Assembly: GCA_964634265.1 (NCBI GenBank)
Contig: CAZWIM010000003.1
Coordinates: 138,541 to 202,540, forward strand
Reading direction: 5' to 3'
From: an uncultured Chitinophaga sp.
Lineage (GTDB): Bacteria > Bacteroidota > Bacteroidia > Chitinophagales > Chitinophagaceae
Length of the DNA stretch: 64,000 nt
Below are positions 6,514 to 20,852 of this stretch, piece after piece. Below the pieces are notes generated by a model. The model searched no databases. It saw only the letters and a list, made by a program, of their open reading frames with translations, and was not told the origin of the DNA. Made by a program: the position numbers and the translations under genes. How positions within the stretch are numbered: position 1 is the stretch's first letter; the number at the start of each line of letters is the position of its first letter.

Positions 6514-6543
6514 AATTATAAGCTTATTGGTTAGTTTAATTGC

Positions 6544-6705
6544 TTAGTTGTCTAATGGAATACGGCTTATTTCCTGTAATTCTTTCTTTTTGGTTCTGAA
6601 AACCATCATTAACATCACCGAAAAGAAGATGACAAATATTAATAAGGACGCCAGTCCCATTATTTCCACACCGCTTACTTTTTCTAAATAATTAATGAAT
6701 TTCAT
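6544..6705 (-). CDS. ccoQ: cbb3-type oxidase subunit IV
   Basis: Manual translation (below ORF-track cutoff): MKFINYLEKVSGVEIMGLASLLIFVIFFSVMLMMVFRTKKKELQEISRIPLDN, lying between ccoNO and ccoP. Confidence 0.88.
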   Translation of the reverse strand: MKFINYLEKVSGVEIMGLASLLIFVIFFSVMLMMVFRTKKKELQEISRIPLDN

Positions 6706-6715
6706 GATTCAGATT

Positions 6716-8857
6716 TTATTTGTTTTCAGCAATGGGTTTTTTAGCTTCTCCCTGTATATCCCGGCCTAAACGCTGCAGGTAAGCAATAAGTGCTATCACT
6801 TCAACATTGGAAGCTGTTTCGATCTTATCTTTTTTCAGATTGGCAGCAATTGAATCAGCCTGGTGCATCAGGTCACGGTTGGCAATTTTATCATAGCCAT
6901 CCGGGTAAGGTACACCCAGTGTCTTCATCGCCCTGATCTTTGCAGGAGTAGAACCTGTGTCAATTTTATTATCCAGCAACCAAATATATCTCGGCATTAA
7001 TGAGCCGGGTGATGTAAGTCTTGGGTCATACATGTGAGTGTAATGCCAGGAGTCAGGTCTTTTGTTTTTATCGTGTCCTTCTCTTGCCAGGTCCGGACCG
7101 GTACGTTTACTTCCCCACTGGAACGGATGATCATAAACAAACTCACCGGCCTTGGAATATTCACCATACCTGGCCACTTCATCACGGAACGGACGGATCA
7201 TTTGAGAGTGGCAGGTATAACAGCCTTCTCTCACATAAATATCCCTGCCCTGTAGTTCAAGTGGTGTGTAAGGCTTCACACTGGCAATGGTCGGAACATT
7301 TGATTTTACCAGGAATGTCGGGATCATCTGTACAAGGCCACCTATTGCCACAAGGATTAAACTCAATACCAGCATAGTAACAGGTTTTCTTTCAATAACC
7401 CTGTGCCAGTATTCTTTTTTAGCATGTTCTCCCTTCACCAATGGTGCTGCTTCAGCAGCTTCGTTTGCAATAAACTTACCGGCAACGATCGTTTTATAAA
7501 GATTATAAACCATCATTAATGCACCGATGAGGTATAAAGAACCACCCACACTGCGGGCAATATACATGGGCTTGATATTGGTCACAGTTTGCAGGAAGTC
7601 ATATTTAATCTGACCTTCCGGTGTAAATTGTTTCCACATCAGGCTCTGTTCAAAACCAGCCCAATACAGGGGGACAGCATATAAAATGATACCAATGGTA
7701 CCCAGCCAGAAGTGGTTAGTAGCCAACTTCTTTGAATATAGATTGGTACCCCACATTTTAGGGATCATATAATAAAGGATCGCAAATGCAAGGAAGCCAT
7801 TCCAGCCTAATCCACCGATATGTACGTGGGCTATTGTCCAGTCACTGAAGTGAGAGATGGCATTTACATTTTTCAAACTCAGCATCGGGCCTTCAAAGGT
7901 GCTCATACCATAACAGGTAATAGCCACTACCATGAATTTCAGAACAGGATCTTCCCTGACCTTATCCCATGCTCCCCGTAAAGTGAATAAGCCATTCAGC
8001 ATACCGCCCCAGCTTGGTGCTATAAGCATGACGGAGAATACAACACCCAGTGATTGTGCCCAGTCAGGCAAAGCTGTATATAAAAGGTGGTGAGGGCCGG
8101 CCCAGATATAAATAAATATCAATGCCCAGAAGTGAATAATAGAAAGTCTGTAAGAATATACCGGCCTGTTAGCTGCTTTGGGTAGGAAATAATACATAAG
8201 TCCCAATACAGGTGTGGTAAGGAAGAAGGCTACGGCATTATGTCCGTACCACCATTGTACCAACGCATCCTGTACACCGGCATACCAGCTATAGCTTTTC
8301 AATGCTGAAACTGGTATTTCAATGGAGTTAACTATGTGCAGCATAGCCACAGTAACCCAGGTAGCTATGTAGAACCAGATGGCCACATACAGGTGACGTT
8401 CTCTTCTTTTAATAATGGTACCAAACATGTTGATACCAAAAATTACCCATACCAGGGTGATAGCGATATCAATTGGCCATTCCAGTTCGGCGTATTCTTT
8501 ACCGGTTGTTTTACCCATCAGCAGAGTTATGGCTGCTGCTGCAATAATGAGCTGCCAGCCCCAGAAATGAACCCAGCTTAGCTTATCACTGAACATTCTG
8601 GCTTTACAGAGACGTTGTAAAGAATAATAAATACCGGCAAACGATGCATTACCTACAAAGGCAAAGATGATGGCGTTGGTATGCAACGGACGGAGGCGTC
8701 CGAAGGTGGTAGCGGCAAGGTTAAGGCTGCTTTCCGGATAATAGATCTGTATAGCAGCCCATAAGCCGGCCAGCATACCTACAATACCGAATAAGATCGT
8801 GGCCAAACCAAAGGCTTTAACGATCTTATTGTCATAATAAAACTTTTCTACTTGCAT
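6716..8857 (-). CDS. ccoNO: Fused cbb3-type oxidase subunits I/II (CcoN-CcoO)
   Basis: RPLHTN, QWWYGHNAVAF, WAGPHH, AHVH, then EGCYTCHSQMIRP and WGSKRTGPDL. Confidence 0.97.
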   Translation of the reverse strand: MQVEKFYYDNKIVKAFGLATILFGIVGMLAGLWAAIQIYYPESSLNLAATTFGRLRPLHTNAIIFAFVGNASFAGIYYSLQRLCKARMFSDKLSWVHFWGWQLIIAAAAITLLMGKTTGKEYAELEWPIDIAITLVWVIFGINMFGTIIKRRERHLYVAIWFYIATWVTVAMLHIVNSIEIPVSALKSYSWYAGVQDALVQWWYGHNAVAFFLTTPVLGLMYYFLPKAANRPVYSYRLSIIHFWALIFIYIWAGPHHLLYTALPDWAQSLGVVFSVMLIAPSWGGMLNGLFTLRGAWDKVREDPVLKFMVVAITCYGMSTFEGPMLSLKNVNAISHFSDWTIAHVHIGGLGWNGFLAFAILYYMIPKMWGTNLYSKKLATNHFWLGTIGIILYAVPLYWAGFEQSLMWKQFTPEGQIKYDFLQTVTNIKPMYIARSVGGSLYLIGALMMVYNLYKTIVAGKFIANEAAEAAPLVKGEHAKKEYWHRVIERKPVTMLVLSLILVAIGGLVQMIPTFLVKSNVPTIASVKPYTPLELQGRDIYVREGCYTCHSQMIRPFRDEVARYGEYSKAGEFVYDHPFQWGSKRTGPDLAREGHDKNKRPDSWHYTHMYDPRLTSPGSLMPRYIWLLDNKIDTGSTPAKIRAMKTLGVPYPDGYDKIANRDLMHQADSIAANLKKDKIETASNVEVIALIAYLQRLGRDIQGEAKKPIAENK

Positions 8858-8877
8858 AAGCTGGGTTGTTTTTAGAT

Positions 8878-9048
8878 TTATTGTGATTGCGTTTTGGTTT
8901 TACTCGCAGGTTTATCATCAAACAGGATGCGGGAGGCAGGAGAGTAATCATCTTCAAACTGGCCACTGCGAACACCCCAAAGAAAGGCAGCCAAAAAAAG
9001 GCCGGCAACGGATATGCTGGCAATAAGAAGTATTAGTATCACACTCAT
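8878..9048 (-). CDS. ccoS: cbb3 oxidase assembly protein
   Basis: MSVILILLIASISVAGLFLAAFLWGVRSGQFED; likely start 9048. Confidence 0.92.
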   Translation of the reverse strand: MSVILILLIASISVAGLFLAAFLWGVRSGQFEDDYSPASRILFDDKPASKTKTQSQ

Positions 9049-9085
9049 GTCCTGTTTTTTTGTCACCGGCAGCTGCCGGGATTTG

Positions 9086-9151
9086 TAAAAGTATTTTGAG
9101 GGTATAGGGTGTCAGGTAATAATTATCACTCAGGGAACTGATTTTTATCAT
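9086..9151 (-). promoter_or_regulatory. Tandem FNR-like boxes plus -7 element (ccoS-NOQP promoter)
   Basis: GTAAT-AATT-ATCAC 9116-9129 and CTGAT-TTTT-ATCAT 9138-9151; TACTTTTA 9093->9086. Confidence 0.75.
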
Positions 9152-9185
9152 TTCCCTCTTCAAATAGCCTGTAAGACAATGATTT

Positions 9186-11582
9186 CTAAAGTTTCATCTG
9201 CCTGGCTATCCAACTGCTGCTGCCAAATGTGAGCAATAAAATGCTTAATGAGCTGGCCGGCATCAGTATCGCTGCGATCAATGGCGACAAGGTGCCTTGT
9301 ACAGCAAATGACAAACCGATAATGTTGTAAACAATAGAAAGCACAAAGCTGGCAATCACGATGTTTTTATTTGCCTTGCAAAGGCTGATGAATCTTGTAA
9401 GTCTTGGTAGCTCTGATGCCCCGATAATAGCATCGCTGGAAGGAGTAAAATTGTTGGTTTGTTCAGAAATAGCAACACCTACATTAGCCTGCTTTAAAGC
9501 ACCTGCATCATTCAAACCGTCTCCAATCATCATTACCCTTTCGCCTCTGTGCTGTAGTTCATGTATATACTGCAGTTTGTCTTCTGGCTGTTGGTTGAAT
9601 AAAAGAGTAGCTTTTTCTCCCAGCAGTTTCCGGAGATTTGCTTTCTCAGTATCGTTGTCACCTGATAAAACCGATATTCTGTAGTTCTTTTTAATTTGAG
9701 CCAGAAAGCTTGACAGGTTATCCCTGTAGTGATTGCTGAACTTGAAAAAGCCAAGCATCTCATTATCAATACTGGCATAAACTACTGTGCCATCGTGGCG
9801 ATGTGGGCTGCCGCTTACAAAACCATAAGATCCAAGCTTTACAAATTTCTCACCCATATACCCTTCAATTCCCTGACCAGTGATTTCTTTAAAATTTGTT
9901 ACATCAATTCTTTTACGGGGAGCAAGATGCAGTGAGAGGGCTTTACTTAACGGATGTGAGGAATGAATAGCCAGCGATGCCAGCAGTTCTTGCTGCCTGC
10001 TATCAAGGGGTTCACCTTCAAAGGAAATATCCTGTTGCTGAGTTGTGGTCAGTGTACCTGTTTTGTCAAAGACTACATGATCGATATCTGCAATGTCTTC
10101 GATGGTTTGCGCATTCCTCAGGTAAAACCTGTTCTTGCCAAGTATCCTGAGGATATTACCGTTGGTGAAGGTATTTGACAATAGAAGGGCACAGGGACAG
10201 GCAATAATAAAAATAGCTGTTACGGCAGGCCATATTCTTGCAGGGTCATTGATTTGCCAGTATACAGCAGTACTAACTGCAATAGTAAATACTATGTAGG
10301 TGAAGTAGCGGCTGAGAAGGTGAACAAAGGATACAGATTTTGTTTCTTCCTGCCTGAATTCATCCCGGTTCCAGAGTTTGGTTAAATAACTCTGGGCTAC
10401 TTCTTTTACCACCAGTATCTCAATATTGCCTTCAGTCTGTTTTCCGCCGGCATAAACCAGTTCTCCTACTTCTTTTAATACGGGTAATGATTCACCAGTG
10501 ACGAAGCTGTAATCAATAAACGCTTTTCCTTTTGTTAAGATGCCATCTGCCGGAATCAGTTCTTCATTATGAATAAGCAGTGTATCGCCAGGTTTTATTT
10601 CGGGTAATGTTGTTGGAACTTCTTTATTATCCTTTAGTACGGAAATGGCAATGGGAAAATATGAAGTGTAATCTCTTTCAAATGAAAGCTGGCGGTAGGT
10701 TTTGTCCTGAACAATTCTGCCGGCCAGCATAAAGAAAACGATGCCTGTCATGGAATCGAAATAACCGCCGCCTGTTCCGCTTAGTACTTCATAAGCACTT
10801 CTTACAAAAGTGATGATGATGGCTAATGCAATGGGTGCATCTATATTAAGAAATCTGTGCTTTAAACTTTTCCAGGATGATTGATAAAAGGGAAGAGCAG
10901 AATATAGAAGAACAGGAATGGCCAGGCCAAAATTCAGCCAGCGGAAAACACCTCTCAGGCCCGTTTCACTGGCGTCTATGCCAAAATACTCAGGAAAACT
11001 CATCAGCATGATGTTACCAAAAGCAAAGCCAGCCACACCTAATTGATAAACCATGCTCTTATTAATAGCCGGACGTTTTTCTTTCAGGTCATTCAGGCTG
11101 ATATATGGCTCATAACCGATGCTGGTCAAAACTTCAGCTACTTTTCTCAAACTGGTTTGTCCTGTAAGCAAAACAATTTCCACTTCTTTTCGGGTAAAAT
11201 TGACCTTGCTGGAAACCACACCAGGATCAAGACGATGCAAATTCTCCAGCAAATACAAACAGGAACTGCAATGCATTTGCGGAAGGTAAAAGGTAACATG
11301 TATTTGCTTATCGTCTTTAAAGCTGATCAGCTGAAGCTGAATTTTTTCATCGTCAAGAAAAGCGAATTTATCTTTCCTTACTTTGATCCGTTGGCTGAGA
11401 CCAGGATTTTCATTCAGTGAGTAATAGTCGCAGAGAGAATGTTCATTCAGAATCTGGAATACCATTTTACAGCCTTCGCAGCAAAAATGTTTTTCTTCCA
11501 GCTGAATTTTATCGTTGGGACAAGCTTCACCGCAGTGATAGCAGCTTATTTTTTCCTTGGTAATACTGTCAGGTGAAAGCAT
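9186..11582 (-). CDS. ccoI: Cu-translocating P1B-type ATPase for cbb3 assembly
   Basis: N-terminal CYHCG/CCEGC, HCSSC, CPCAL, DKTGT, GDGLND. Start placed at MLSPDS (11582) because the predicted -7 lies at 11609-11602. Confidence 0.93.
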   Translation of the reverse strand: MLSPDSITKEKISCYHCGEACPNDKIQLEEKHFCCEGCKMVFQILNEHSLCDYYSLNENPGLSQRIKVRKDKFAFLDDEKIQLQLISFKDDKQIHVTFYLPQMHCSSCLYLLENLHRLDPGVVSSKVNFTRKEVEIVLLTGQTSLRKVAEVLTSIGYEPYISLNDLKEKRPAINKSMVYQLGVAGFAFGNIMLMSFPEYFGIDASETGLRGVFRWLNFGLAIPVLLYSALPFYQSSWKSLKHRFLNIDAPIALAIIITFVRSAYEVLSGTGGGYFDSMTGIVFFMLAGRIVQDKTYRQLSFERDYTSYFPIAISVLKDNKEVPTTLPEIKPGDTLLIHNEELIPADGILTKGKAFIDYSFVTGESLPVLKEVGELVYAGGKQTEGNIEILVVKEVAQSYLTKLWNRDEFRQEETKSVSFVHLLSRYFTYIVFTIAVSTAVYWQINDPARIWPAVTAIFIIACPCALLLSNTFTNGNILRILGKNRFYLRNAQTIEDIADIDHVVFDKTGTLTTTQQQDISFEGEPLDSRQQELLASLAIHSSHPLSKALSLHLAPRKRIDVTNFKEITGQGIEGYMGEKFVKLGSYGFVSGSPHRHDGTVVYASIDNEMLGFFKFSNHYRDNLSSFLAQIKKNYRISVLSGDNDTEKANLRKLLGEKATLLFNQQPEDKLQYIHELQHRGERVMMIGDGLNDAGALKQANVGVAISEQTNNFTPSSDAIIGASELPRLTRFISLCKANKNIVIASFVLSIVYNIIGLSFAVQGTLSPLIAAILMPASSLSILLLTFGSSSWIARQMKL

Positions 11583-11601
11583 TTTTTTCCAAAATAATGC
11601 G

Positions 11602-11667
11602 TGAAAGTATTCCACTGTTAAAATACTTTATTTGAGCAACCTCAAAAAGTAAACTGATTTTTATCAG
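11602..11667 (-). promoter_or_regulatory. Tandem FNR-like boxes plus -7 element (ccoI promoter)
   Basis: TTGAG-CAAC-CTCAA 11632-11645 and CTGAT-TTTT-ATCAG 11654-11667; TACTTTCA 11609->11602. Confidence 0.8.
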
Positions 11668-13076
11668 TTCCTTTCTTCAGCAACATGGCGGGGAGCCTGG
11701 ATCGTAACCAGCTCTTCTTCAACGGTAGGCTTCTTTTGGGTGCTGCTGGCCAGTATTTTATAAACAGAAAAGATCAAAAGAAAGAGACCGGCGAAAATAG
11801 CGATGCCACTATAGGCAAATAGCTTGAACCATGGCTGGCTTTTTTGCATGATAGAAGCAAATACTTCATTGTTGAGTTTACCGCTGAGCTTCAGCAGCCC
11901 GCTGCCCAACAGAGAAATCCAGAAAAGAAGTAGCGAAATATTTGTAATGAGAATACCCCAGTTTATATGCAGTTTTTTCTTTTCAATTGCGGCTCTGTTT
12001 TCGTTTTGGATAATATAAAATAAAGATGCAAATAACAGCATTGTATTAATACCAATAGTGGCGCCCATGGCATGAGCTACTGTTATGTGAGTACCGTGAG
12101 TATAATAATTCCAGGACGGAACAGATATCGCAATAGCCAATGTAAGATTCAGAAATATCCAGATATCGGCATAGGAAAGCAGCCGATAGGGTATGTTATG
12201 ATAATTTTTCCGTGCCTGTGTCATGGTCTTTCTCCACTGCATTATTATGTATCCCAGTATAAGTAACTCCGTCATACTTATCACATAGGCTACTGTTTTT
12301 ACCCAGGGTGCAGCTGGTACTATATAAGTGTGATGGCCCCAGTTGAACATCAGGTTGGTCAACCCGAGAAAATAAAAAAAGAAAGCGATAGGCGAACGAT
12401 TGGCTTTGGTGTCACCGCTCAACTTTTCCATAACATACATACCGGTGCCGTACACCAGCATGTTCCAGCTACCTACCATGGAGCCAAGTGCTTTCCACTG
12501 CACTGTCACATCCCTGACGATATTGGTATGAAAATAATCCAGCAGCCACAAATAGGATTCAGACAAGGTAATAAAGAAGAAAAGTATACCTGTTGACCAA
12601 CTCCAGATATAAACAGGTGCGTTCTTATAATCAGGCTTAAGGGTAAAAAAGAAGTTGATAGCAAAAGGTACCCATGACAGCATGATTACTGCGCCGAGTA
12701 ACGGGGGAAACTCCAGGTATTCTCTTCCCCCAAAATAGCCAAGAAAAAAACAAACTAAAATGAGCAAAGAAACTGCTGAGTGGAGAAAAAAGTGTATCCA
12801 GGCACCTTGTTGCCAGTGAAGAGGTCTGCCTGTTACTCTTGGTAAATAGTAATATAAACCGGCTTGTGCTGCCGTAAATATCCAGCTGATAACAAGATAT
12901 ACATGCAACGGTCTTGTTTTCTGAAAGGCCAGCTGATCTTTTAAAAATGGTGGAAGGATATATTGCAGCCCGCCGATAACTCCCAGCAACAAACCAATCA
13001 GGAGGTAACTTACAGAAAGCAGTAAAAATGCCTTTGCTGTTTTGTCAGAAGTGTATATAGCAGTGTCCTTAAACAT
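11664..13076 (-). CDS. Non-canonical heme-copper superfamily subunit I (NorB/CcoN-related)
   Basis: About 12 TM; RPLH58, GREYLEFP, NWGH248H249, E270 and AH335AM337 present; helix-VI His absent (QWKALGSMVGSWN). Confidence 0.85.
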   Translation of the reverse strand: MFKDTAIYTSDKTAKAFLLLSVSYLLIGLLLGVIGGLQYILPPFLKDQLAFQKTRPLHVYLVISWIFTAAQAGLYYYLPRVTGRPLHWQQGAWIHFFLHSAVSLLILVCFFLGYFGGREYLEFPPLLGAVIMLSWVPFAINFFFTLKPDYKNAPVYIWSWSTGILFFFITLSESYLWLLDYFHTNIVRDVTVQWKALGSMVGSWNMLVYGTGMYVMEKLSGDTKANRSPIAFFFYFLGLTNLMFNWGHHTYIVPAAPWVKTVAYVISMTELLILGYIIMQWRKTMTQARKNYHNIPYRLLSYADIWIFLNLTLAIAISVPSWNYYTHGTHITVAHAMGATIGINTMLLFASLFYIIQNENRAAIEKKKLHINWGILITNISLLLFWISLLGSGLLKLSGKLNNEVFASIMQKSQPWFKLFAYSGIAIFAGLFLLIFSVYKILASSTQKKPTVEEELVTIQAPRHVAEERN

Positions 13077-13082
13077 AACAGG

Positions 13083-13460
13083 TCAGGGCTTGGATTTATA
13101 GGTTACAGCAGTTGAGTCTACATATTTTAAGTAACTGATAATATCAGCGATTTCATCAGCTTTAAAATGAAAATTGGGCATTCTGGGTCCACCTGCCTGT
13201 AAGAAGGCTTTCATATAAACTTCACCCCGTTGCGGATCGCTGTAGGCAGTTGTCAGTTCAGGACCCAGGTAGCCGCCTAAACCGTATATCTGGTGGCAGG
13301 CAACGCAATTGTATTGTTCATACAGGTATTTACCACGGGATACTTTTTCTGCTTGTTGTCCTGTTAATTGTATCTCACTTTCCGTTCCTTTTGAATAAAT
13401 GACTGTACTGTAAACCGCATAGCTGGTGAATAAAGTGAGAAAGACTGCTATTTTGATCAT
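13083..13460 (-). CDS. Membrane-anchored monoheme cytochrome c (NorC-like)
   Basis: N-terminal TM, CVACHQIYGLGGYLGPELT, PRMP axial Met. Confidence 0.88.
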   Translation of the reverse strand: MIKIAVFLTLFTSYAVYSTVIYSKGTESEIQLTGQQAEKVSRGKYLYEQYNCVACHQIYGLGGYLGPELTTAYSDPQRGEVYMKAFLQAGGPRMPNFHFKADEIADIISYLKYVDSTAVTYKSKP

Positions 13461-13480
13461 CAGTACTTTGTTTAAAAGGG

Positions 13481-13546
13481 CGAAAGTATTTTCAGGCTTT
13501 GCAGGCAGCGGTGATTTTTCTCAGCCACCGGCCTGATAGTTCTCAT
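13481..13546 (-). promoter_or_regulatory. Tandem FNR-like boxes plus -7 element (norCB-like promoter)
   Basis: GTGAT-TTTT-CTCAG 13511-13524 and CTGAT-AGTT-CTCAT 13533-13546; TACTTTCG 13488->13481. Confidence 0.78.
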
Positions 13547-13569
13547 TTATTCTACTTTTTTAATGGACT

Positions 13570-13593
13570 AAAAAGCATAATCGTATGTTATGC
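13570..13593 (-). terminator. Probable terminator after nosY
   Basis: Minus strand GCATAA-CATACGA-TTATGC-TTTTT (short, AT-rich stem). Confidence 0.45.
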
Positions 13594-13622
13594 CAGAAAG
13601 ACTTTTAGCTCTGCTCTCTTTG

Positions 13623-14390
13623 TTAGAGATCTTTTCTATTGAATCTGCGTATAGCTAGCCAAAGGGGTAATACTGTCCACAGTAGCATGATACCTATTGT
13701 AAACAGCAGACCAGTGCTGCTGGTAAAGAAATCTTTGTATAAGGCGCTTGTGACTCCCATTAATGCACTGATGTCCATCTTTAATGTAACAAAGATTCTT
13801 CCAACATCAATCGGGTTCAGCGATATGAGGGGCAATGTGATTTTTTCCAGCGGGTAATCGCTAAAATTAAAGATTATGAGTAAAATAAGGCCATCAAAAA
13901 TAAGGGTGAAGTAAAACCAAAGCAGGAGAGCGGCACCGATACCCCTGGCTTTGTCTCTTGACCTGACTGATGCAAAAAAGGCAATAGCCACAAAAACAAC
14001 AGTTAAAGCCATCCCGGTCAAAAGCAGTGCAAAGCCGGTTTCATCCGGTGCATAAATGAGGATGGGCAAACCTACGCCGATCAGGAAGGCGCTGAGTAAT
14101 GATATACTTACACCGGCAAACTCACTTATTATGATGCGGGTACGGCTCATTGGCTGCGATGACATCAGTTCTATAAACTCATAAGAATTATAATAGTGAA
14201 TAGTGGTGAATACAAGACTAACCAGCGGCAAAACAATCAATACAATATTTAGCAAACTCAGCATGGCCTTACTGCTGTTTTCTTCCATATTGAACATACT
14301 CAGTGAAACAACCAGTAAAAACAGGGTATAGGCTAATACGATCTTGCTTCTTAGTATATCGTACAGCACATATTTTGATACCTTCATCAT
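13623..14390 (-). CDS. nosY: Nos ABC transporter permease
   Basis: Six-TM ABC-2 permease with LNPID motif, downstream of nosD-nosF. Confidence 0.88.
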   Translation of the reverse strand: MMKVSKYVLYDILRSKIVLAYTLFLLVVSLSMFNMEENSSKAMLSLLNIVLIVLPLVSLVFTTIHYYNSYEFIELMSSQPMSRTRIIISEFAGVSISLLSAFLIGVGLPILIYAPDETGFALLLTGMALTVVFVAIAFFASVRSRDKARGIGAALLLWFYFTLIFDGLILLIIFNFSDYPLEKITLPLISLNPIDVGRIFVTLKMDISALMGVTSALYKDFFTSSTGLLFTIGIMLLWTVLPLWLAIRRFNRKDL

Positions 14391-14401
14391 AGCTGCGGGG
14401 T

Positions 14402-15169
14402 TTAATAGATTTTCTCGTCTTTTTTAACTTCCAGTATCTTGTCTATCCACTCATTTGTGAGCTTTTCACCTTTCATAATCCTGGCAATAGCTTTACCCAG
14501 CCTCAGTTCGCCTGTTTCTTCCTGTAATGTCTGCATATCTTTAAAGAATTGCATTTTACCTTCCTGCAGGTACATCACATGTGTGGTCAGTTCATCAAGA
14601 TCGCTTAGTATATGAGAAGTGATGAGGATCAGCTTATTTTTTTTCTTTTCAGCAATGATCTTATCTTTTAATAGTTCAGAAGAAAGCGGATCAAGACCGG
14701 CGGTGGGTTCGTCAAGAATTAATATGGCAGGATCGAACAGGAATGCCAATGCAGCGCTAACTTTTTGACGGGTGCCTCCGCTCAATGTCCGCATAGGTTT
14801 ATCATATATCTTTTCCAGTTCAAATTGCCTGATCAATGTTTCATCCTGCTTATCAGTCGCTACTCCCCGAATGTTTTCAATCATACGGAAAAGTTGACCG
14901 ATCCTCATATTGTCAGGATACCGTCCAATCTGCGGCATATAACCGATATTGGCCCGATAGGAGTGATCCCCGCTGATCACATGCCCGTCAACTGTGATCT
15001 TGCCTTTATCGGGGCGTACCATCCCCAAAATGGATTTGATAAGGGTCGTTTTTCCGGATCCGTTTGGCCCGATAAGTGAAATTACCTGCCCTTTTTCCAT
15101 GTTGGCGTTGATATCGTCCAATACCTGGAGTTTGCGGAACCGCTTGCTGATATGTTCAATACTGATCAT
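14402..15169 (-). CDS. nosF: Nos ABC transporter ATPase
   Basis: GPNGSGKT, LSGG, ILDEP. Confidence 0.9.
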   Translation of the reverse strand: MISIEHISKRFRKLQVLDDINANMEKGQVISLIGPNGSGKTTLIKSILGMVRPDKGKITVDGHVISGDHSYRANIGYMPQIGRYPDNMRIGQLFRMIENIRGVATDKQDETLIRQFELEKIYDKPMRTLSGGTRQKVSAALAFLFDPAILILDEPTAGLDPLSSELLKDKIIAEKKKNKLILITSHILSDLDELTTHVMYLQEGKMQFFKDMQTLQEETGELRLGKAIARIMKGEKLTNEWIDKILEVKKDEKIY

Positions 15170-16398
15170 AGCTTCAGTGATTTCATCATTGGTTTTTTGT
15201 CTACAAGGTTTTCAGGGGTAAGACTTGGTATGGCTTTTTCAGCTTTGTCAAGCAGTTGAACGGTAAAACTTCTCAACAGCATCAGGGCATTGGGGTTTTG
15301 TTCTATGATCATAGAATACATGCTCACCGGATGATAAGGAATGTCGCCCACTCCATCCCTGTTGATATCGTACCCTTCATATTTATCCCAATAGTTACTG
15401 CTAAATTCATTCAGTGACACCGACCCGTTAGTGCCAACATCAAAACTGTTGCCTGAAAAATTATTACGCTGAAAAATGTTATTCTCACAACTCGCCTGAA
15501 CTTTAATGGCCCATCCGTTTTCCCTAAAAGTATTCCGTTCAATCGTCATGCGGCTGGTGCCTTCCATGTGTATGCCCACTGTGTTTTTGTAGAAAGTGTT
15601 ATGAGATATATAGCTGTCAGAAATATCTTTTAAAAGTATGCCATATGCAGATGACCCCCAGTTTTGATCAAAGTGATTGTTTTCCATCTTAACCTTTTTG
15701 GAATACATCACAGCCACACCAGCTCCATTATTTATGAAAGTATTATTCAGGTAAGCGTCATCATTGGAGAACATAAAATGTAAACCATAGCGAATATTTT
15801 TCTCACTATGATTATTTCTGATGATTGAATGGGTCACAAATTCAAAATAAATACCATCCCGGTGACCCTGGATATTGTTGTTTTCAATTACTGCATAGCT
15901 CGATTTCCACAAATGAATACCATTTCCGGTCAATTGTTCAGACCTGGGAGAGCCTGTTATTATATTGTTTTTAATGGTAGCATAGCTGGTATTAGATACA
16001 TGAATAGCAAAGTAGGCATTGGTTACTTTATTCCCGTCAATGGTGACTTTTGAAGCGTCCACCAGTTTTATGGATGCATAGTCATTTAATGCAGAATATC
16101 CGGAGTTTCTGAATGCAAGGCCTTTTATGCTGATATTCTGGCCACTTATCAGCATAATCTCATACTTATTCTCTCCCTCCAGTATGGGATAGTTTTGGCC
16201 TATGATCGTTATTGATTTTGTTAGTTGTAAAGCACCTTCTTTATAGAGCCCCGGCATCACAGTGATGCTGTCATAATCTTTGGCTATTTCGATGGCTTTC
16301 CGGATAGATGTTACTGACTGATTCTTACCCACGATAATATTCCGGCCAAATCCGGTTGCCGGTAACAGAATTAATAATATCAGGACGAAGCGGTGCAT
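15166..16398 (-). CDS. nosD: N2O reductase maturation protein
   Basis: Beta-helix repeats, GNGIHLW, HRDGIYFE, RYGLHFMFS, NYWDKYEGYD.N.DG.GD. Confidence 0.95.
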   Translation of the reverse strand: MHRFVLILLILLPATGFGRNIIVGKNQSVTSIRKAIEIAKDYDSITVMPGLYKEGALQLTKSITIIGQNYPILEGENKYEIMLISGQNISIKGLAFRNSGYSALNDYASIKLVDASKVTIDGNKVTNAYFAIHVSNTSYATIKNNIITGSPRSEQLTGNGIHLWKSSYAVIENNNIQGHRDGIYFEFVTHSIIRNNHSEKNIRYGLHFMFSNDDAYLNNTFINNGAGVAVMYSKKVKMENNHFDQNWGSSAYGILLKDISDSYISHNTFYKNTVGIHMEGTSRMTIERNTFRENGWAIKVQASCENNIFQRNNFSGNSFDVGTNGSVSLNEFSSNYWDKYEGYDINRDGVGDIPYHPVSMYSMIIEQNPNALMLLRSFTVQLLDKAEKAIPSLTPENLVDKKPMMKSLKL

Positions 16399-17429
16399 TA
16401 TTGCTGGCTTTTGAACAACTCCTCCCAGGTATGTAATGTACCTTCTTTTGTACTATTGGCTTTTTCAGCCGCTTCTTTTGATGAAAATGCGGCGGCATTA
16501 CTTCCCATCGGGCTTCTTAATTGCGGGTTTACCAAAAAGGTAGCTTTTTCCACATCAATGAAATCATTTTCTTTTTCAAAATTGATGACAACTCTTTGTG
16601 AAATTTCTTTTTCTTCCAACATACCGGATTTCAGAAAATTGATCATACATACGAGGTCATCAAATTTGTATACTTTACTTTTCTTGGTTATCACTTCACA
16701 TCCATATTTGGGATCCATGATACCCATTTTACAAAAGTGACAATTATCCTGTCCGTACTTAAATGGTTCTGGTTTTGCAGAACAGGAGCTAAGAAAGAGC
16801 CCCAGCAAAATAACAGGTGCCGCAAATGTGGTGGTTTTAAGTTTTTTTGAAGCTTTACGGTGCTTATACCACTCCGCAAACCAAACTGCAAAGGCGAGAC
16901 AGCCTGCTCCAATCACTATCCAGCCACCTACGTCTGGAAATGAATAAGAATCAAAATTCAGTAAACGTTTGTGGCCAATCAGCGGCGGCTGATAAGACAT
17001 GTCCGGCACCTGGATAGGTGCTTTTGGATCAAGGTTATGTCCGTATTTATAGCCCCATTGGTAAAAGTCCCACATAGCCAGTATGCCACCCAGGATAGTC
17101 AGACCTATATAGGCAAGCAGGAACTTGCGATTACCAGTAATGGCGACTATCATACCCAACAGCATGAAAAAGCCGACTACATAAGGCAGGTATTTAAATT
17201 CAGGGAACATGTCAACCGTAATGTGCTCCATACCGATATAATGGTTCAGGCCATTAATAATATCTACATCACCGGTAAGGCCATTTATCCAAATGTTCAT
17301 TGTCAGACCTTCCGGATATTGGGGAGCAAAAAGGTCTATACGCCAGGCGGGAAGAAAGAAAACGGCAATCAATGCACCAGATGCAAATGCTACTAGAATC
17401 CTCGATGCGACACTCAGTTTGTTGTTCAT
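16398..17429 (-). CDS. nosL: Clade II Nos membrane protein (NosB-like) fused to NosL copper chaperone
   Basis: N-terminal WRIDLFAPQYPEGL...LNHYIGM membrane domain; C-terminal CHFCKMGI, FDDLVC, SPMG; likely start MNNKLS. Confidence 0.85.
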   Translation of the reverse strand: MNNKLSVASRILVAFASGALIAVFFLPAWRIDLFAPQYPEGLTMNIWINGLTGDVDIINGLNHYIGMEHITVDMFPEFKYLPYVVGFFMLLGMIVAITGNRKFLLAYIGLTILGGILAMWDFYQWGYKYGHNLDPKAPIQVPDMSYQPPLIGHKRLLNFDSYSFPDVGGWIVIGAGCLAFAVWFAEWYKHRKASKKLKTTTFAAPVILLGLFLSSCSAKPEPFKYGQDNCHFCKMGIMDPKYGCEVITKKSKVYKFDDLVCMINFLKSGMLEEKEISQRVVINFEKENDFIDVEKATFLVNPQLRSPMGSNAAAFSSKEAAEKANSTKEGTLHTWEELFKSQQ

Positions 17430-17501
17430 AACCCTGTTTTTAATGACTTCCGGGGCATTGCACCCCGGAAGCTTCAATTTTTAAACCTTCAACAAGAAAA
17501 G

Positions 17502-18062
17502 CTATTTTTTAGCCGGTGGTAGCAATACCTCATCAATTACATATACAAGTCCGTTACTTGCGGGAATGGCAGCTACAATATTTGCTTTGCCATTTATTTT
17601 TATTTTACCATCTGCAGATTTACTGATAGTAATATTATCTCCGTTGGCCTGGCCTATTTGCTGACCGTCCTGCAGCATATTTTCTTTAAATACGCCTAGT
17701 GCAACATGGTATTCAAGAATGTTCTGCAAATCTGCTTTTTTATCATCTTTCATTAATCCATCAACAGTTCCTGCAGGGAGTTTATCAAAAGCAGCATTGG
17801 TTGGTGCAAACACGGTAAAAGGCCCGGCGTTTGAAATATCATCTACATATTCAGCCTGTTTAAGGGCAGCCACCAATGTGGTATGATCGGGTGAGCCAAC
17901 AGCTACTTTTACTATATCCTTTTGTGATACATCGTCCTTCACATTTTCCTGTCCCCCCGCTGTTACTGTTTCATCAGTAGCAGCAGTTTCTTTTTTTTCA
18001 TTATTGCAGGCATTTGTAAATATGATAAGTGCGACTGGCAGCAGTAAGATTAGTTTTTTCAT
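17502..18062 (-). CDS. Fasciclin (FAS1) domain lipoprotein
   Basis: Lipobox FTNAC; GPFTVFAPTNAAF, ILEYHV, ASNGLVYVIDEVLLP. Confidence 0.92.
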   Translation of the reverse strand: MKKLILLLPVALIIFTNACNNEKKETAATDETVTAGGQENVKDDVSQKDIVKVAVGSPDHTTLVAALKQAEYVDDISNAGPFTVFAPTNAAFDKLPAGTVDGLMKDDKKADLQNILEYHVALGVFKENMLQDGQQIGQANGDNITISKSADGKIKINGKANIVAAIPASNGLVYVIDEVLLPPAKK

Positions 18063-18091
18063 ATACTTATATTTTAAGTATGAAAGTTGAT

Positions 18092-18119
18092 AAGAGCAAC
18101 CGCATATGCGGTTGCTCTT
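18092..18119. repeat. Perfect 28-bp palindrome between nosZ and the fasciclin gene
   Basis: AAGAGCAACCGCAT|ATGCGGTTGCTCTT. Confidence 0.9.
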
Positions 18120-18126
18120 TACTTAA

Positions 18127-20130
18127 TTATTTCTTTTGAGTGGTGTCTTTGGGGGTAACTGGGGCTGTTTTACCAGTACTGAATGTAAGCGGCACATTCG
18201 ACCCGGCAGGGCTTACTCTTACATACCCTTGCATTTCCTGGTGCAGTGCAGAGCAGAAGTCTGTGCAATACATGGGGTATATACCCACTTTTTCTGGTTT
18301 CCATGCCAATGTTTGAGTTTCACCAGGCATGATCAACAGTTCGGCGTTATTAGCACCTTTAACTGCAAAGCCATGCGGCACATCCCAGTCCTGTTCCAGG
18401 TTAGTAACATGGAAGTAAACAATGTCGCCCAGTTTTACACCTTCGATATTGTCAGGAGTGAAGTGAGAGCGGATAGAGGTCATGTACACATGTATTTCAT
18501 TACCTTTTCTTTCCACTCTTGCATTGTTATCACCCAATGCAGCATAAGGGTTTTTGTTTTCTTCGATTTTATAGATCTTGGTTGAATTCTTCATGATCAG
18601 TTCAGCAGGAATGGCTTCAGCATAGTGCGGCTCACCAATTGTGGGGAAGTCAAGCAATAGCTTCATTTTTTCACCGCTGATGTCATATAACTGGGCACTT
18701 TGTGTCAGTTCAGGACCTGTAGGCAGGTAACGGTCTTTTGTGATTTTGTTGTAAGCAATTACATATTTGCCATGTGGTTTTTTAGTAGGACCACCGGGCA
18801 CACAGAGGTGACCAATTGAGTAATACGTAGGTACACGGTCAACCACTTTCAGGTCTTTAATATTCCATTTTACTATCTCAGATGATACGAAGAAAGAGGT
18901 ATAGGCATTACCTTTTGCATCAAATTCTGTATGCAAAGGGCCTAATCCTGGTTTTTGTACCTCACCATGTAAAACAGCTTCATATTTTAAAACAGGTATA
19001 CCATCAAAGTTGCCATCAAAATTCTTCTGGGCTATTGCTTCCTGGATTTTGGTGAAAGAAAATACCGGTATTACGGCTGCCAGTTTACCACTGCCTACAA
19101 TATACTCACCGGTAGGATCGGTATCACAACCGTGGGGTGATTTGGGGCAAGGCATATAATACACCATATCGGGGCAATCTTTTGGATCAAGTACCAGTAC
19201 TTCATTTTCCATAGTTGAAGTGGCAGAATGAGTGCTTTCATTATACACATTATGTGCATACTTCACGGCTTTCTTAACTCCTTTGCCTGCTTTTGCATAC
19301 TCTTCTGCTTTTTTCCAGTTCACTGCCATAATAAAATCTTTGTCTTTCTGGGAAGCATTCACTTCCAGCAGTGTATTGGCTTTTTCAGAATTGTAACAGC
19401 TAAAGAACATCCAGCCAGCAGATTTGCCTTTGCCGGCACGGGCAAGGTCATAATTTACACCCGGGGTAAGTATCTGGAAAGCGATATTCATGTTGCCGGA
19501 AGTTTTATCAATGCCGATAAAACTTACAGTTCCTTTAAAGTTCTCTTTGTATGTTTCAATGGGTACATCTTGTTTATCACCAATAGGAATACTGAAACGG
19601 GTACCAGCCACAACGTACTCGGAATTCTCAGTTATGAACGGAGAAGAGTGGTTGCCGGCACTGTTGGGAATTTCAATAATTTCTGCTGTTCTGAATGTTT
19701 TAAGGTCAATGCGGGCAATACGAGGAGTGTTATTAGCATTACCAAATGCCCAGCGACCGTCATGCTCTCCGTTCGTAACAGACAGTGCTATGTGGTGCAG
19801 ATCATCCCAGGGTACAAAACCATGTGATGTGTTCAACATAGGTTTGGATTCTTCACTGTAGCCCCAGCCTTTTTCAGGATCAACGGAAAAAACGGGTATA
19901 ACACGGAACAAACGTCCTGATGGTAAACCATACACAGACATTTGCCCGCTGAAACCACCGGAAACAAAGTTGTAGAATTCATCATATTTACCGGGGGCAA
20001 CGTAAACCTTGGAAGCAGCATTTCCGCTTACGGCTGATTGCGATCCTTTGGGTTTACAGCCCTGCATGAACACCAATCCAGTCGTTAATAACAGGAATGG
20101 TATTGTTGTTCTTAAAAATTTGTGTTTCAT
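18127..20130 (-). CDS. nosZ: Clade II (Sec-dependent) nitrous oxide reductase
   Basis: No twin-Arg signal; lipoprotein-like signal ...FMQGC; CuZ His motifs DLHH, GNH, PHG, GPLHT, GHL, EPH; CuA motif H...CTDFCSALHQEM. Confidence 0.97.
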   Translation of the reverse strand: MKHKFLRTTIPFLLLTTGLVFMQGCKPKGSQSAVSGNAASKVYVAPGKYDEFYNFVSGGFSGQMSVYGLPSGRLFRVIPVFSVDPEKGWGYSEESKPMLNTSHGFVPWDDLHHIALSVTNGEHDGRWAFGNANNTPRIARIDLKTFRTAEIIEIPNSAGNHSSPFITENSEYVVAGTRFSIPIGDKQDVPIETYKENFKGTVSFIGIDKTSGNMNIAFQILTPGVNYDLARAGKGKSAGWMFFSCYNSEKANTLLEVNASQKDKDFIMAVNWKKAEEYAKAGKGVKKAVKYAHNVYNESTHSATSTMENEVLVLDPKDCPDMVYYMPCPKSPHGCDTDPTGEYIVGSGKLAAVIPVFSFTKIQEAIAQKNFDGNFDGIPVLKYEAVLHGEVQKPGLGPLHTEFDAKGNAYTSFFVSSEIVKWNIKDLKVVDRVPTYYSIGHLCVPGGPTKKPHGKYVIAYNKITKDRYLPTGPELTQSAQLYDISGEKMKLLLDFPTIGEPHYAEAIPAELIMKNSTKIYKIEENKNPYAALGDNNARVERKGNEIHVYMTSIRSHFTPDNIEGVKLGDIVYFHVTNLEQDWDVPHGFAVKGANNAELLIMPGETQTLAWKPEKVGIYPMYCTDFCSALHQEMQGYVRVSPAGSNVPLTFSTGKTAPVTPKDTTQKK

Positions 20131-20194
20131 AATATGTATTTAGCAGTTTTGAAAAGAGGTTCCTTTGCTTCCGTTGGTTCTTGTTTTGGTTCTT

Positions 20195-20843: not shown

Positions 20844-20852
20844 TTTTGCAAA

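What the first reader, a model, noticed from the sequence alone, without database searches (positions are those of the whole stretch)
11664..13460. NorCB-like pair with a rebuilt active site next to nosZ
Seen: the 470-aa protein keeps His58 (RPLH), the GREYLEFP loop, His248/His249, Glu270 and His335. The helix-VI segment reads QWKALGSMVGSWN (codons from 12500) where CcoN in this same window has QWWYGHNAVAF, so the CuB/FeB ligand His aligns with Gly198. The helix-X HxH becomes H335-A-M337 (codon 12068-12066). Known: canonical cNOR and cbb3 enzymes require the helix-VI His and a bis-His low-spin heme, and His/Met ligation typically raises heme potential. From memory, unverified here, surveys of the heme-copper superfamily mention a cNOR-related clade proposed as an alternative N2O reductase. 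Inference, three options: an atypical NO reductase protecting NosZ, a copper-poor N2O reductase, or a non-catalytic membrane electron conduit to NosZ (no nosG/nosH/nosR is seen here).
Basis: partly seen in the sequence, partly recalled or inferred. Interest (0 to 1): 0.9.

Follow-up and report, generated by a model that had tools for sequence, protein, structure and literature searches.

The report
NorCB-like enzyme with rebuilt active site
Next to the gene for the enzyme that destroys the greenhouse gas N2O sits an intact, widely conserved relative of bacterial nitric-oxide reductase that has lost two of its six hallmark histidines; the family is already named in the literature as a possible second N2O reductase, but nobody has tested what it does.

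Summary
The genes at 13083-13460 and 11664-13076 (minus strand, 6 nt apart) encode a NorC-like membrane cytochrome c and a 470-aa NorB-like subunit.

Three alignment methods agree on these matches to Pseudomonas NorB:
- kept: H58=H60, H248/H249=H258/H259, E270=E280, H335=H347
- changed: G198=H207, M337=H349, N205=E215
- deleted: the iron ligand E211
- gained: an invariant Lys195 one helix turn before Gly198

These residues are invariant in 81 Bacteroidota orthologs down to 48% identity, and in representatives down to about 30%. This is therefore a family signature, not decay or a sequencing error.

In the tree the family, together with a sister clade (His195/Asp198/Ala270), is sister to cNOR+qNOR. 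That fits the cNOR-related "N2O red" family of Murali et al. 2024, whose function is untested.

Context points to low oxygen and nitrosative stress. Fnr-type boxes lie upstream. RIC/YtfE and an Rrf2 regulator are frequent neighbours. The nos cluster adjoins the pair in 36 of 81 loci.

The host genomes are almost all non-denitrifiers. 120 of 132 nosZ genomes in the order lack the pair.

My best guess (about 45%) is a cytochrome-c-dependent NO-detoxifying reductase that feeds N2O to NosZ. A haem-based N2O reductase remains possible (about 20%).

The parts
13083..13460 (-). NorC-like subunit, 125 aa. It has an N-terminal membrane anchor (residues ~4-22), haem-c motif C52-V-A-C55-H56 and a probable distal Met94. 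G62/Y64 align with NorC G71/Y73, the Ca2+ site.
   Evidence: Pfam Cytochrom_C and Cytochrome_CBB3. Best PDB hits are NorC 3o0r_C (E 4.7e-10) and the NorC-like 4xyd_B, with alignment CVGCHTLLGEGAYFAPEL / CVACHQIYGLGGYLGPEL and MPQFH / MPNFH. A homolog lies upstream of the HCO gene in 78 of 81 loci, directly upstream in 69.
11664..13076 (-). NorB-like haem-copper-oxidase subunit I, 470 aa, 12 TM helices.
- Low-spin haem ligands: His58 and Met337.
- Catalytic haem proximal ligand: His335.
- Distal pocket: His248, His249, Glu270, Lys195, Asn205, Tyr251, with Gly198 where the third metal His should be.
- Ca2+/proton-path residues kept: R118, E119, E122, D189.
   Evidence: Pfam COX1 E 2.7e-34. It falls far below the cut-off of the CcoN equivalog (57.8 vs 583 bits). 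NorB 3o0r_B E 4e-13. hhalign 99.5%. AF2 model pLDDT 79, pTM 0.82, all-helical. Foldseek gives TM 0.76-0.81 to cbb3 CcoN and 0.72-0.78 to cNOR NorB. Residue conservation.
13461..13622 (-). Own upstream region of the pair. It holds two TGA-N6-TCA (Crp/Fnr-type) boxes at 13512-13524 and 13533-13545, 21-22 bp apart and 63 and 85 nt upstream of the NorC-like start codon.
   Evidence: Sequence read. CTGA-N6-TCA occurs 26 times in the window against 8.9 +/- 3.4 expected. It lies upstream of the cbb3 genes, nos, RIC and this pair. A TGA-N6-TCA box lies within 180 nt upstream of the NorC-like gene in 43 of 69 loci against 10% of background windows. In 18 loci there are two or more boxes, most 22 bp apart. 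The simple scan called no intrinsic terminator here.
13623..20665 (-). Context: the clade II nos cluster directly upstream on the same strand.
- cyt c: 20195-20665
- Sec-type nosZ: 18127-20130
- fasciclin protein: 17502-18062
- membrane-NosL fusion: 16398-17477
- nosD: 15166-16398
- nosF: 14402-15169
- nosY: 13623-14390
   Evidence: TIGR04246 950.8 bits against a cut-off of 625. Pfam NosL and Fasciclin. ORFs. The same block adjoins the pair in 36 of 81 loci, in at least two different arrangements.
20835..22164 (+). Context: Rrf2-family regulator (20835-21293) and the di-iron Fe-S repair protein RIC/YtfE (21409-22164), divergent from the nos/pair block.
   Evidence: Pfam Rrf2, ScdA_N + Hemerythrin. 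TIGR03652 RIC scores 211.3 bits against a cut-off of 204.7. Rrf2 is resolved only to superfamily level. In loci without nos (L019, L021-L024, L027) the same Rrf2-RIC pair is directly divergent from the NorC-like/HCO pair. In others a RIC paralog is the gene directly upstream on the same strand.
5329..11615 (-). Context: cbb3 oxidase module directly downstream. It comprises a CcoI-like P-type ATPase (9186-11615), a ccoNO fusion (6716-8857) and ccoP (5329-6513). An Fnr-type box at 11654-11667 overlaps the stop codon of the HCO gene.
   Evidence: Pfam, ORFs, box. The cbb3 module follows the pair in about 24 of 80 related loci, including loci that lack nos.

Best explanation
Shown: this is an intact two-subunit, cytochrome-c-dependent membrane haem enzyme. 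It belongs to a distinct clade that is sister to cNOR+qNOR inside the C-family/NOR branch of the haem-copper oxidoreductases. Very probably this is the clade that Murali et al. 2024 call 'N2O red'.

The cNOR chassis is kept: a NorC-like anchored haem-c subunit, the Ca2+ site, the periplasmic proton-path residues, the proximal His of a catalytic haem, two of the three metal-site His, and Glu280.

Two things are changed:
- The electron-transfer haem has His/Met ligands instead of bis-His.
- The distal site is rebuilt. The helix-VI His is now Gly. The FeB glutamate is deleted. Glu215 is now Asn. An invariant Lys sits one turn before the Gly.

Inferred mechanism:
1. Electrons enter from periplasmic cytochrome c through the NorC-like haem c.
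2. They pass to a raised-potential His/Met haem b.
3. They reach a high-spin haem. Its distal partner is either a 2-His/1-Glu (plus or minus Lys) non-haem metal, or no metal at all, with the Lys ammonium and Asn acting as polar or proton-donating groups.
4. Protons come from the periplasm, so the reaction is not electrogenic.

Inferred role: under low oxygen the enzyme reduces NO made by neighbouring denitrifiers or by side reactions to N2O. This protects NosZ, cbb3 and Fe-S proteins. The N2O product goes to the adjacent NosZ. The hosts are otherwise non-denitrifying N2O reducers.
For: Identity and anatomy:
- searches support the subunit assignments, the alignment register and the fold.

Family-wide conservation of the changed residues:
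-.

Tree:
- K clade, SH-aLRT support 97 (starred)
- K clade plus HD clade, 97 (starred)
- this pair sister to cNOR+qNOR, 81
- CcoN lies outside

Context:
- RIC/YtfE and/or Rrf2 lie in 37 of 80 related loci. RIC is often the gene directly upstream in the same orientation, or Rrf2-RIC is directly divergent from the pair where nos is absent.
- Fnr-type boxes are conserved upstream.
- nos adjoins the pair in 36 of 81 loci, in at least two arrangements: co-directional after nosY, and divergent in the Flavipsychrobacter-type loci.
- In one genome a NOD-type qNOR homolog is divergently adjacent, 69 nt away.

Genomes:
- The window's genome has no nirK above cut-off, no nirS and no other NOR-type HCO.
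- Of 15 genomes of the order that carry the pair, 1 has nirK and 0 have nirS.
- 10 of the 15 have no further HCO hit besides A-family and ccoNO-type oxidases (by score and ORF length) and the pair itself.
- 12 of the 15 have nosZ.

Electron entry:
- Distant members are fused to FixO-like and further cyt c domains, which confirms electron entry from c-type cytochromes.
Against: - No activity, metal content or expression data exist.
- In cNOR, H207 and E211 bind FeB. From general knowledge of Paracoccus and Pseudomonas NorB mutants, loss of the equivalent Glu abolishes NO reduction. An ordinary cNOR mechanism is therefore excluded, and NO reduction would need different chemistry.
- The Rrf2 protein cannot be assigned to NsrR.
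- The Fnr-type boxes fit oxygen control as well as NO control.
- The enrichment of nosZ among carrier genomes is significant by genome (12/15 vs 120/286, Fisher p = 0.006) but not by genus (7/9 vs 58/120, p = 0.16).
- Adjacency to nos and a published proposal also fit N2O as the substrate.
Confidence: 0.45

Rival explanations
1. It is a copper-independent, haem-based N2O reductase, as proposed by Murali et al. N2O binds at the catalytic haem. It is polarised and protonated by Lys195, Asn205 and Glu270, and reduced by two electrons from cytochrome c. This would give acetylene- and sulfide-insensitive N2O reduction alongside NosZ.
For: - The published proposal concerns a cNOR-related clade and cites the membrane-bound, acetylene/sulfide-insensitive N2O reductase of Flexibacter canadensis.
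- The tree position fits that clade.
- nos adjoins the pair in 36 of 81 loci.
- The His/Met haem would suit a high-potential acceptor.
- The hosts make no NO of their own.
Against: - It usually coexists with NosZ and often sits beside it (12 of 15 genomes). A substitute enzyme would not be expected to do so.
- RIC/YtfE as an operon partner points to NO damage rather than N2O.
- To my knowledge no haem enzyme is known to reduce N2O.
- The window's NosZ has a possible lipoprotein signal (FMQGC). That could by itself explain a 'membrane-bound' N2O reductase in Bacteroidota.
- I could not check whether F. canadensis carries this gene.
Confidence: 0.2
2. It catalyses some other reaction of a small oxidant at the rebuilt site. 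Candidates are NO dismutation or oxidation, or scavenging of O2 or peroxide. The aim would be to protect the oxygen- and NO-sensitive NosZ and cbb3 machinery under microoxic conditions.
For: - The site resembles no characterised HCO site.
- Another HCO lineage with one His replaced (NOD) has been proposed to have new chemistry (PMC3413370).
- A NOD-type gene is adjacent in one genome.
- The sister clade occurs as a stand-alone two-gene module among housekeeping genes in Verrucomicrobiota and Saprospirales, like a detoxification module.
- The pair shares low-oxygen-type boxes with cbb3.
Against: - A conserved cytochrome c partner argues for a reductase, not a dismutase.
- There is no cross-link Tyr (L242) and only two His for a CuB-type metal, so it is not a canonical O2 reductase.
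- A normal cbb3 oxidase is encoded next door.
Confidence: 0.2
3. It is a non-catalytic membrane electron conduit or scaffold that delivers electrons to NosZ, replacing nosGH/nosR.
For: - It is adjacent to nos here, and no nosR/nosGH is visible in the window.
- The raised-potential His/Met haem could serve pure electron transfer.
Against: - 120 of 132 nosZ-carrying genomes of the order lack it.
- 3 of 15 carriers lack nosZ.
- 45 of 81 loci have no nos genes within 10 kb.
- The proximal His of a high-spin haem and a full set of polar distal residues are invariant, which is unnecessary for a wire.
- No quinol-site evidence exists, and the partner is an electron-accepting NorC-type cytochrome.
Confidence: 0.07
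4. It is a decaying pseudo-enzyme or a sequencing or assembly error in this genome.
For: - Two of the six canonical His are missing.
- One related genome (G299) has an in-frame TAA in its copy.
Against: - The frame is intact here.
- The same substitutions are invariant across 81 orthologs, and in representatives down to about 30% identity.
- More than 3300 homologous proteins were found.
Confidence: 0.01

Closest known systems
cNOR (NorCB), cytochrome-c-dependent NO reductase; Pseudomonas aeruginosa 3O0R, Roseobacter denitrificans 4XYD
   Same: - Two-gene norC-norB order with tight coupling.
- Anchored mono-haem NorC-like subunit with the Ca2+-site Gly and Tyr.
- 12-TM subunit I.
- GRE(Y/F)xE Ca2+/proton-path loop, and the R-D pair before helix VI.
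- Two metal-site His, Glu280, the proximal His, and the THGT motif.
- No cross-link Tyr.
   Different: - Helix-VI His207 is Gly.
- The FeB ligand Glu211 is deleted.
- Glu215 is Asn.
- Trp204 is an invariant Lys.
- The low-spin haem has His/Met, not bis-His.
- It forms a separate clade, sister to cNOR+qNOR.
- Hosts mostly lack nirK and nirS.
'N2O red' HCO family of Murali, Hemp, Gennis et al. 2024 (PNAS 121:e2316422121; PMC11214002)
   Same: - Described as closely related to cNOR, on the C-family branch.
- Lacks the active-site Tyr.
- Rare (25 NCBI and 293 GTDB genomes).
- Its rationale comes from a Bacteroidota organism (Flexibacter canadensis).
All of this fits the clade found here.
   Different: - Membership could not be verified against the authors' tree or HMM, because the supplements are not held.
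- The accessible text of the paper gives no active-site description and no biochemical test.
- My context data lean towards NO rather than N2O.
cbb3-type oxidase subunit CcoN (3MK7). This is the name NCBI's pipeline gives to this family.
   Same: - Equal structural similarity (TM 0.76-0.81).
- Same helix-VI length, with no Glu211 insertion.
- QW motif and the Ca2+ loop.
- Distant members are fused to FixO/CcoP-like cytochrome c domains.
   Different: - No helix-VII cross-link Tyr.
- No helix-VI His.
- His/Met haem.
- NorC-like rather than CcoO/CcoP partners here.
- 57.8 bits against the 583-bit cut-off of TIGR00780.
nNOR and gNOR (B-family-derived putative NORs, Murali et al. 2024) and NOD (qNOR-derived putative NO dismutase, Ettwig et al. 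2012)
   Same: - nNOR also has a His/Met low-spin haem.
- gNOR has Asp in place of a metal-site His, as does the HD sister clade found here.
- NOD shows that loss of one metal His with Glu-to-Gln occurs in a conserved, expressed lineage.
   Different: - nNOR and gNOR derive from the B family and have CuA subunits.
- NOD derives from qNOR and lacks an electron-input site.
- The present clade is on the cNOR/C-family side and keeps a cytochrome c partner.

Membership tests
cNOR (NorCB) | Upstream membrane-anchored mono-haem NorC subunit | tested here: met
   The 125-aa protein has a TM anchor, CVACH and Met94. Its best PDB hit is NorC 3o0r_C, E 4.7e-10. It is conserved in 78 of 81 loci.
cNOR (NorCB) | Histidine sextet (NorB H60, H207, H258, H259, H347, H349) | tested here: not met
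   Four of six are kept. H207 is G198 and H349 is M337, in three alignments and family-wide.
cNOR (NorCB) | FeB carboxylate Glu211, plus Glu215 and Glu280 | tested here: not met
   E211 has no counterpart (a one-residue deletion, as in CcoN). E215 is N205. Only E280 is kept, as E270.
cNOR (NorCB) | Ca2+ site between the haems (NorB Glu135; NorC Gly71/Tyr73) | tested here: met
   E119 is in the GREY loop. G62/Y64 of the small subunit align with NorC G71/Y73. This is sequence-level evidence only.
cNOR (NorCB) | Falls inside the cNOR clade | tested here: not met
   It forms its own clade with the HD sister clade (SH-aLRT 97), sister to cNOR+qNOR (81). This was a quick tree with only two cNOR references.
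cNOR (NorCB) | NO to N2O activity | not testable with these tools
   Needs enzyme assays.
'N2O red' HCO family (Murali et al. 2024) | Branches next to cNOR within the C-family/NOR branch, and lacks the active-site Tyr | tested here: met
   Tree. L242 stands at the cbb3 Tyr position, and no Tyr lies at the helix-VI position. The description is in PMC11214002.
'N2O red' HCO family (Murali et al. 2024) | Matches the authors' curated HMM or tree leaves (Datasets S3, S4) | not testable with these tools
   Supplementary files are not held.
'N2O red' HCO family (Murali et al. 2024) | Present in Flexibacter (Solitalea) canadensis, the organism behind the proposal | not tested
The organism is not among the 80 loci returned.
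'N2O red' HCO family (Murali et al. 2024) | N2O to N2 activity insensitive to acetylene and sulfide | not testable with these tools
   Needs physiology and enzymology.
cbb3 oxidase CcoN | Helix-VII Tyr cross-linked to the helix-VI His; three CuB His; equivalog score | tested here: not met
   L242 replaces the Tyr and G198 replaces the His. TIGR00780 scores 57.8 bits against a cut-off of 583.15.
NOD (putative NO dismutase) | qNOR-type fusion with the haem-less cyt-c-like domain; HH to HN; Glu to Gln; no electron input | tested here: not met
   The window protein has HH, keeps the Glu and has a cyt c partner. NOD-type proteins from related genomes form a separate clade.

The most novel reading that the evidence does not exclude
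The enzyme has no second metal, or only a 2-His/1-Glu/Lys site, and uses a Lys/Asn/Glu-lined haem pocket to reduce N2O to N2. That would make it the first copper-independent biological N2O reductase. It would be the long-sought acetylene- and sulfide-insensitive activity of Bacteroidota. It would also be an N2O sink invisible to every nosZ-based survey.
Probability: 0.18. Interest if true: 0.95.

Novelty: new member of a known kind. Interest (0 to 1): 0.6.

Why it matters
- NosZ is treated as the only biological sink for N2O. A second, copper-independent enzyme would change greenhouse-gas budgets and survey methods.
- If the enzyme instead reduces NO, it is a new catalytic solution: only two metal-site His and a conserved Lys. 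The many Bacteroidota counted as 'non-denitrifying N2O reducers' in wastewater and soil would then also make N2O from external NO.
- In practice the family is annotated inconsistently. NCBI calls it 'cbb3-type cytochrome c oxidase subunit I' and IMG calls it 'nitric oxide reductase subunit B'. Genome surveys of denitrification traits therefore mis-score these organisms either way.
- Cultured carriers exist: Flavisolibacter ginsengisoli DSM 18119, Cloacibacterium normanense and Amniculibacterium aquaticum. The question is directly testable.

Tried and rejected
- Supplementary datasets of Murali et al., which would prove or disprove membership: not held. The preprint and the FIND preprint add nothing on this clade. 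The Ignavibacterium paper and the Danish wastewater MAG paper do not mention it.
- Names for representative proteins: the listing of cluster members returned none.
- Structure search cannot separate cbb3 from cNOR as nearest fold; the TM scores overlap. The tools give no coordinates, so I could not measure whether Lys195 reaches the His248/His249 site. The AF2 model is least confident exactly there (pLDDT 54-67 over residues ~240-300; below 50 at 188-192 and 252-254).
- The Rrf2 regulator could not be assigned to NsrR. NsrR, IscR and RirA models all score far below their cut-offs.
- An early MAFFT run put a gap after QW and shifted the helix-VI register by one. I rejected that register in favour of the ungapped one. 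It is anchored on the conserved Trp four residues before the His position, and HMMER, L-INS-i and hhalign all reproduce it.
- The simple terminator scan found no terminator between nosY and the pair. Whether the pair is also read through from the nos promoter stays open.
- Genome-level co-occurrence with nosZ is not significant once collapsed to genera.
Full report
OBSERVATION

Two tightly coupled minus-strand ORFs lie at 13083-13460 (125 aa) and 11664-13076 (470 aa). They are 6 nt apart.

The large protein is a haem-copper-oxidase subunit I. Pfam COX1 gives E 2.7e-34. It is far from any curated equivalog: the CcoN model TIGR00780 scores 57.8 bits against a cut-off of 583. Its best solved relative is NorB of Pseudomonas aeruginosa cNOR (3o0r_B, E 4e-13). 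Next come Roseobacter NorB and then cbb3 CcoN.

The small protein has an N-terminal membrane anchor, CVACH and a distal Met. Its best solved relatives are NorC (3o0r_C, E 4.7e-10) and the Roseobacter NorC-like chain. The Gly and Tyr that help bind the inter-haem Ca2+ in cNOR are conserved.

ALIGNMENT REGISTER

Three methods agree: HMMER against 3o0r_B, MAFFT L-INS-i with NorB, CcoN, qNOR-type and other HCOs, and hhalign of a 30-sequence family profile against NorB (99.5% probability). The matches to Pseudomonas NorB are:
- H58 = H60
- E119/E122 = E135/E138
- W194 = W203
- K195 = W204
- G198 = H207
- no counterpart of E211
- N205 = E215
- H248/H249 = H258/H259
- E270 = E280
- H335 = H347
- M337 = H349
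- L242 stands where cbb3 has its cross-linked Tyr

The protein therefore keeps four of the six histidines that Ettwig et al. call the signature of the superfamily (PMC3413370). It lacks two of the four FeB ligands of cNOR.

NOT A PRIVATE DEFECT

More than 3300 homologs were scored. In 81 orthologs from Bacteroidota genomes, down to 48% identity, these residues are invariant: K195, G198, G202, W204, N205, H248, H249, T250, Y251, E270, H335 and M337.

Among representatives of 50%-identity clusters, down to about 30% identity, the same residues hold in 36-38 of 38 sequences.

A sister group at 25-30% identity, which I call the HD clade, reads QW-H-G-x-D, GHHH and A at position 270. It keeps H-x-M. 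Positions 195, 198 and 270 thus switch together, K/G/E against H/D/A. This suggests that they belong to one site.

PHYLOGENY AND FOLD

A quick maximum-likelihood tree of 67 sequences (LG+C20, SH-aLRT) gives the following support:
- K clade: 97
- HD clade: 100
- K clade plus HD clade: 97
- this pair sister to cNOR plus qNOR-type proteins: 81
- CcoN lies outside; B- and A-type oxidases lie further out

The AlphaFold2 model (pLDDT 79, pTM 0.82) is an all-helical 12-TM bundle. Foldseek finds cbb3 CcoN (TM 0.76-0.81) and cNOR NorB (TM 0.72-0.78) as equally good matches. The model is least confident around helices VI-VIII. No coordinates are available to measure the site.

LITERATURE

Murali et al. 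[quoted passage not shown] They cite the 1990 and 1992 work on Flexibacter canadensis. They count 25 NCBI genomes, 597 IMG metagenome hits and 293 GTDB genomes.

The tree position, the missing Tyr, the rarity and the Bacteroidota bias all fit the clade found here. I could not check the authors' leaf list. The same paper notes that a His/Met low-spin haem in nNOR should raise the potential by about 150 mV. It also notes that gNOR has Asp for a metal-site His. These are parallels to M337 and to the HD clade.

GENE NEIGHBOURHOOD (80 RELATED LOCI PLUS THE WINDOW)

- The NorC-like gene accompanies the HCO gene in 78 of 81 loci.
- The nos cluster adjoins the pair in 36 of 81 loci. There are at least two arrangements. 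In Chitinophagaceae the pair is co-directional after nosY. In Flavipsychrobacter-type loci it is divergent from the nos operon.
- The cbb3 module follows the pair in about 24 loci, including loci without nos.
- RIC/YtfE and/or an Rrf2 regulator lie in 37 of 80 loci. Where nos is present, Rrf2-RIC is divergent from the whole block, as in the window (20835-22164). Where nos is absent, the same Rrf2-RIC pair is directly divergent from the NorC-like gene (L019, L021-L024, L027). In other loci a RIC paralog is the gene directly upstream on the same strand.
- Distant K-clade members are fused to FixO-like and further cytochrome c domains.

REGULATION

The 162-nt region upstream of the pair carries two TGA-N6-TCA boxes, at 13512-13524 and 13533-13545. 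CTGA-N6-TCA is three-fold enriched in the window (26 against 8.9 +/- 3.4). It lies upstream of the cbb3 genes, nos, RIC and the pair.

A box lies within 180 nt upstream of the NorC-like gene in 43 of 69 loci, against 10% of background windows. In 18 loci there are two or more boxes, most 22 bp apart. This is a conserved Crp/Fnr-type input. It does not say whether the signal is O2 or NO.

A PAS histidine kinase with weak FixL similarity lies next to RIC.

GENOMES

The window's genome is 98.5% complete. It has an A-type oxidase, the ccoNO oxidase and this protein, but no other NOR-type HCO. It has no nirK above cut-off and no nirS.

In 301 genomes of the order:
- 15 carry the pair.
- 132 carry clade II nosZ.
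- 12 of the 15 carriers have nosZ, against 120 of 286 non-carriers (Fisher p = 0.006). By genus the figures are 7/9 against 58/120 (p = 0.16).
- 120 of 132 nosZ genomes lack the pair.

Among the 15 carriers, 1 has nirK and 0 have nirS. The nirS control search rang nowhere, so absence is less certain.

Ten of the 15 have no further HCO hit beyond A-family and ccoNO-type oxidases (classed by score and ORF length only) and the pair itself. The other five carry NOD-type or possibly sNOR-type proteins.

At phylum level only 6 of 401 sampled genomes carry it.

INTERPRETATION

Shown:
- The pair is intact and conserved.
- It is cytochrome-c-dependent.
- It is a relative of cNOR with a systematically rebuilt distal site and a His/Met electron-transfer haem.
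- It forms its own clade.
- It is not required for NosZ and is not restricted to nosZ genomes.
- It is found in organisms that do not make NO themselves.
- It is embedded in a low-oxygen/nitrosative-stress neighbourhood.

Inferred:
- The catalytic haem is retained, because the proximal His, the Ca2+ site and the proton-path residues are invariant.
- The distal partner is either a 2-His/1-Glu (plus or minus Lys) metal or a metal-free Lys/Asn/Glu pocket.
- The most likely substrate is NO, reduced to N2O that the neighbouring NosZ removes.

From memory only: E. coli YtfE/RIC has been proposed to release NO from damaged centres for reduction by Hcp. A RIC-NorC-like-HCO operon would be the membrane analogue.

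The N2O-reductase proposal remains open. It would be the more important outcome. The conduit and decay readings are disfavoured by the data above.

VERDICT

This is a further member of a clade already named in print but never characterised. Interest is moderate to high because the function is an open, directly testable question with cultured carriers available. The same family has also been met by earlier follow-ups of this scan.

Noticed in passing
L087 (G296:C1) 8527-12681: In a related genome the NorC-like/HCO pair (9905-10306 and 8527-9972, minus strand) is divergent, with a 69-nt spacer, from a 768-aa qNOR-type gene. That gene carries the NOD signature: GISHN instead of HH, STLQ instead of the Glu, and the NorB cyt-c-like domain PF22085. 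Similar NOD-type genes occur in G198 and G243; G295 has a like-sized 821-aa hit whose motifs I did not read.
   Followed up: partly
proteins P0223-P0268; loci L097, L098, L099: The sister 'HD' clade (QW-H-G-x-D, GHHH, Ala at position 270, still H-x-M) occurs in Saprospirales, Opitutales/Oceanipulchritudo (Verrucomicrobiota) and Parvularculaceae. It always has its own ~145-aa cytochrome c. In the three loci examined it was a stand-alone module among housekeeping genes. Its site converges on the Asp-for-His change described for gNOR.
   Followed up: partly
proteins P0136, P0149, P0159, P0190, P0176: Distant members of the K clade are ~540-820-aa fusions of the HCO domain with one or more cytochrome c domains; three of the four ~800-aa proteins also have a FixO-like segment.
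   Followed up: partly
L058 4847-13135: This locus has the gene order Usp - RIC - NorC-like - two tryptophanase-type beta-eliminating lyases - HCO - MbnP - MbnH. The lyases split the cyt c gene from the HCO gene in several loci (L058, L060, L061, L069, L071). An MbnPH copper-lipoprotein pair follows.
   Followed up: no
window, e.g. 2374-2409, 4730-4743, 6596-6608, 9138-9150, 11654-11667, 13512-13545, 20805-20817, 21328-21341, 25173-25186: CTGA-N6-TCA palindromes are three-fold enriched (26 against 8.9 expected). They sit in intergenic regions of the cbb3, pair, nos and RIC genes, sometimes in tandem about 22 bp apart. This looks like one Crp/Fnr-type regulon.
   Followed up: partly
window 20041-20130 (NosZ N-terminus): NosZ starts MKHKFLRTTIPFLLLTTGLVFMQGCKPKG. 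This is a signal peptide ending in a possible lipobox Cys. A lipid-anchored NosZ could by itself explain the old reports of a 'membrane-bound' N2O reductase in Bacteroidota.
   Followed up: no
genome contig C10:92121-92771 (L084 1333-2622): A 429-aa membrane protein with weak matches to both COX1 (28.8 bits) and NnrS (29.2 bits). It may be an NnrS-like haem-copper protein of the NO response.
   Followed up: partly
L090, L091, L092, L093 (G295, G243, G097, G198): 472-490-aa HCOs have the full His set but GHTLFN in helix VI, with Asn where B-type oxidases have the cross-link Tyr. They may be sNOR-type NO reductases that coexist with the pair in some genomes.
   Followed up: no
G299:C32:20203-21564: The copy of the HCO gene in this related genome has one in-frame TAA. 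It may be a pseudogene or an assembly error.
   Followed up: no
one search hit table: Public annotation of this family is inconsistent. NCBI calls it 'cbb3-type cytochrome c oxidase subunit I' and IMG calls it 'nitric oxide reductase subunit B'. Surveys of denitrification traits will mis-score it either way.
   Followed up: no
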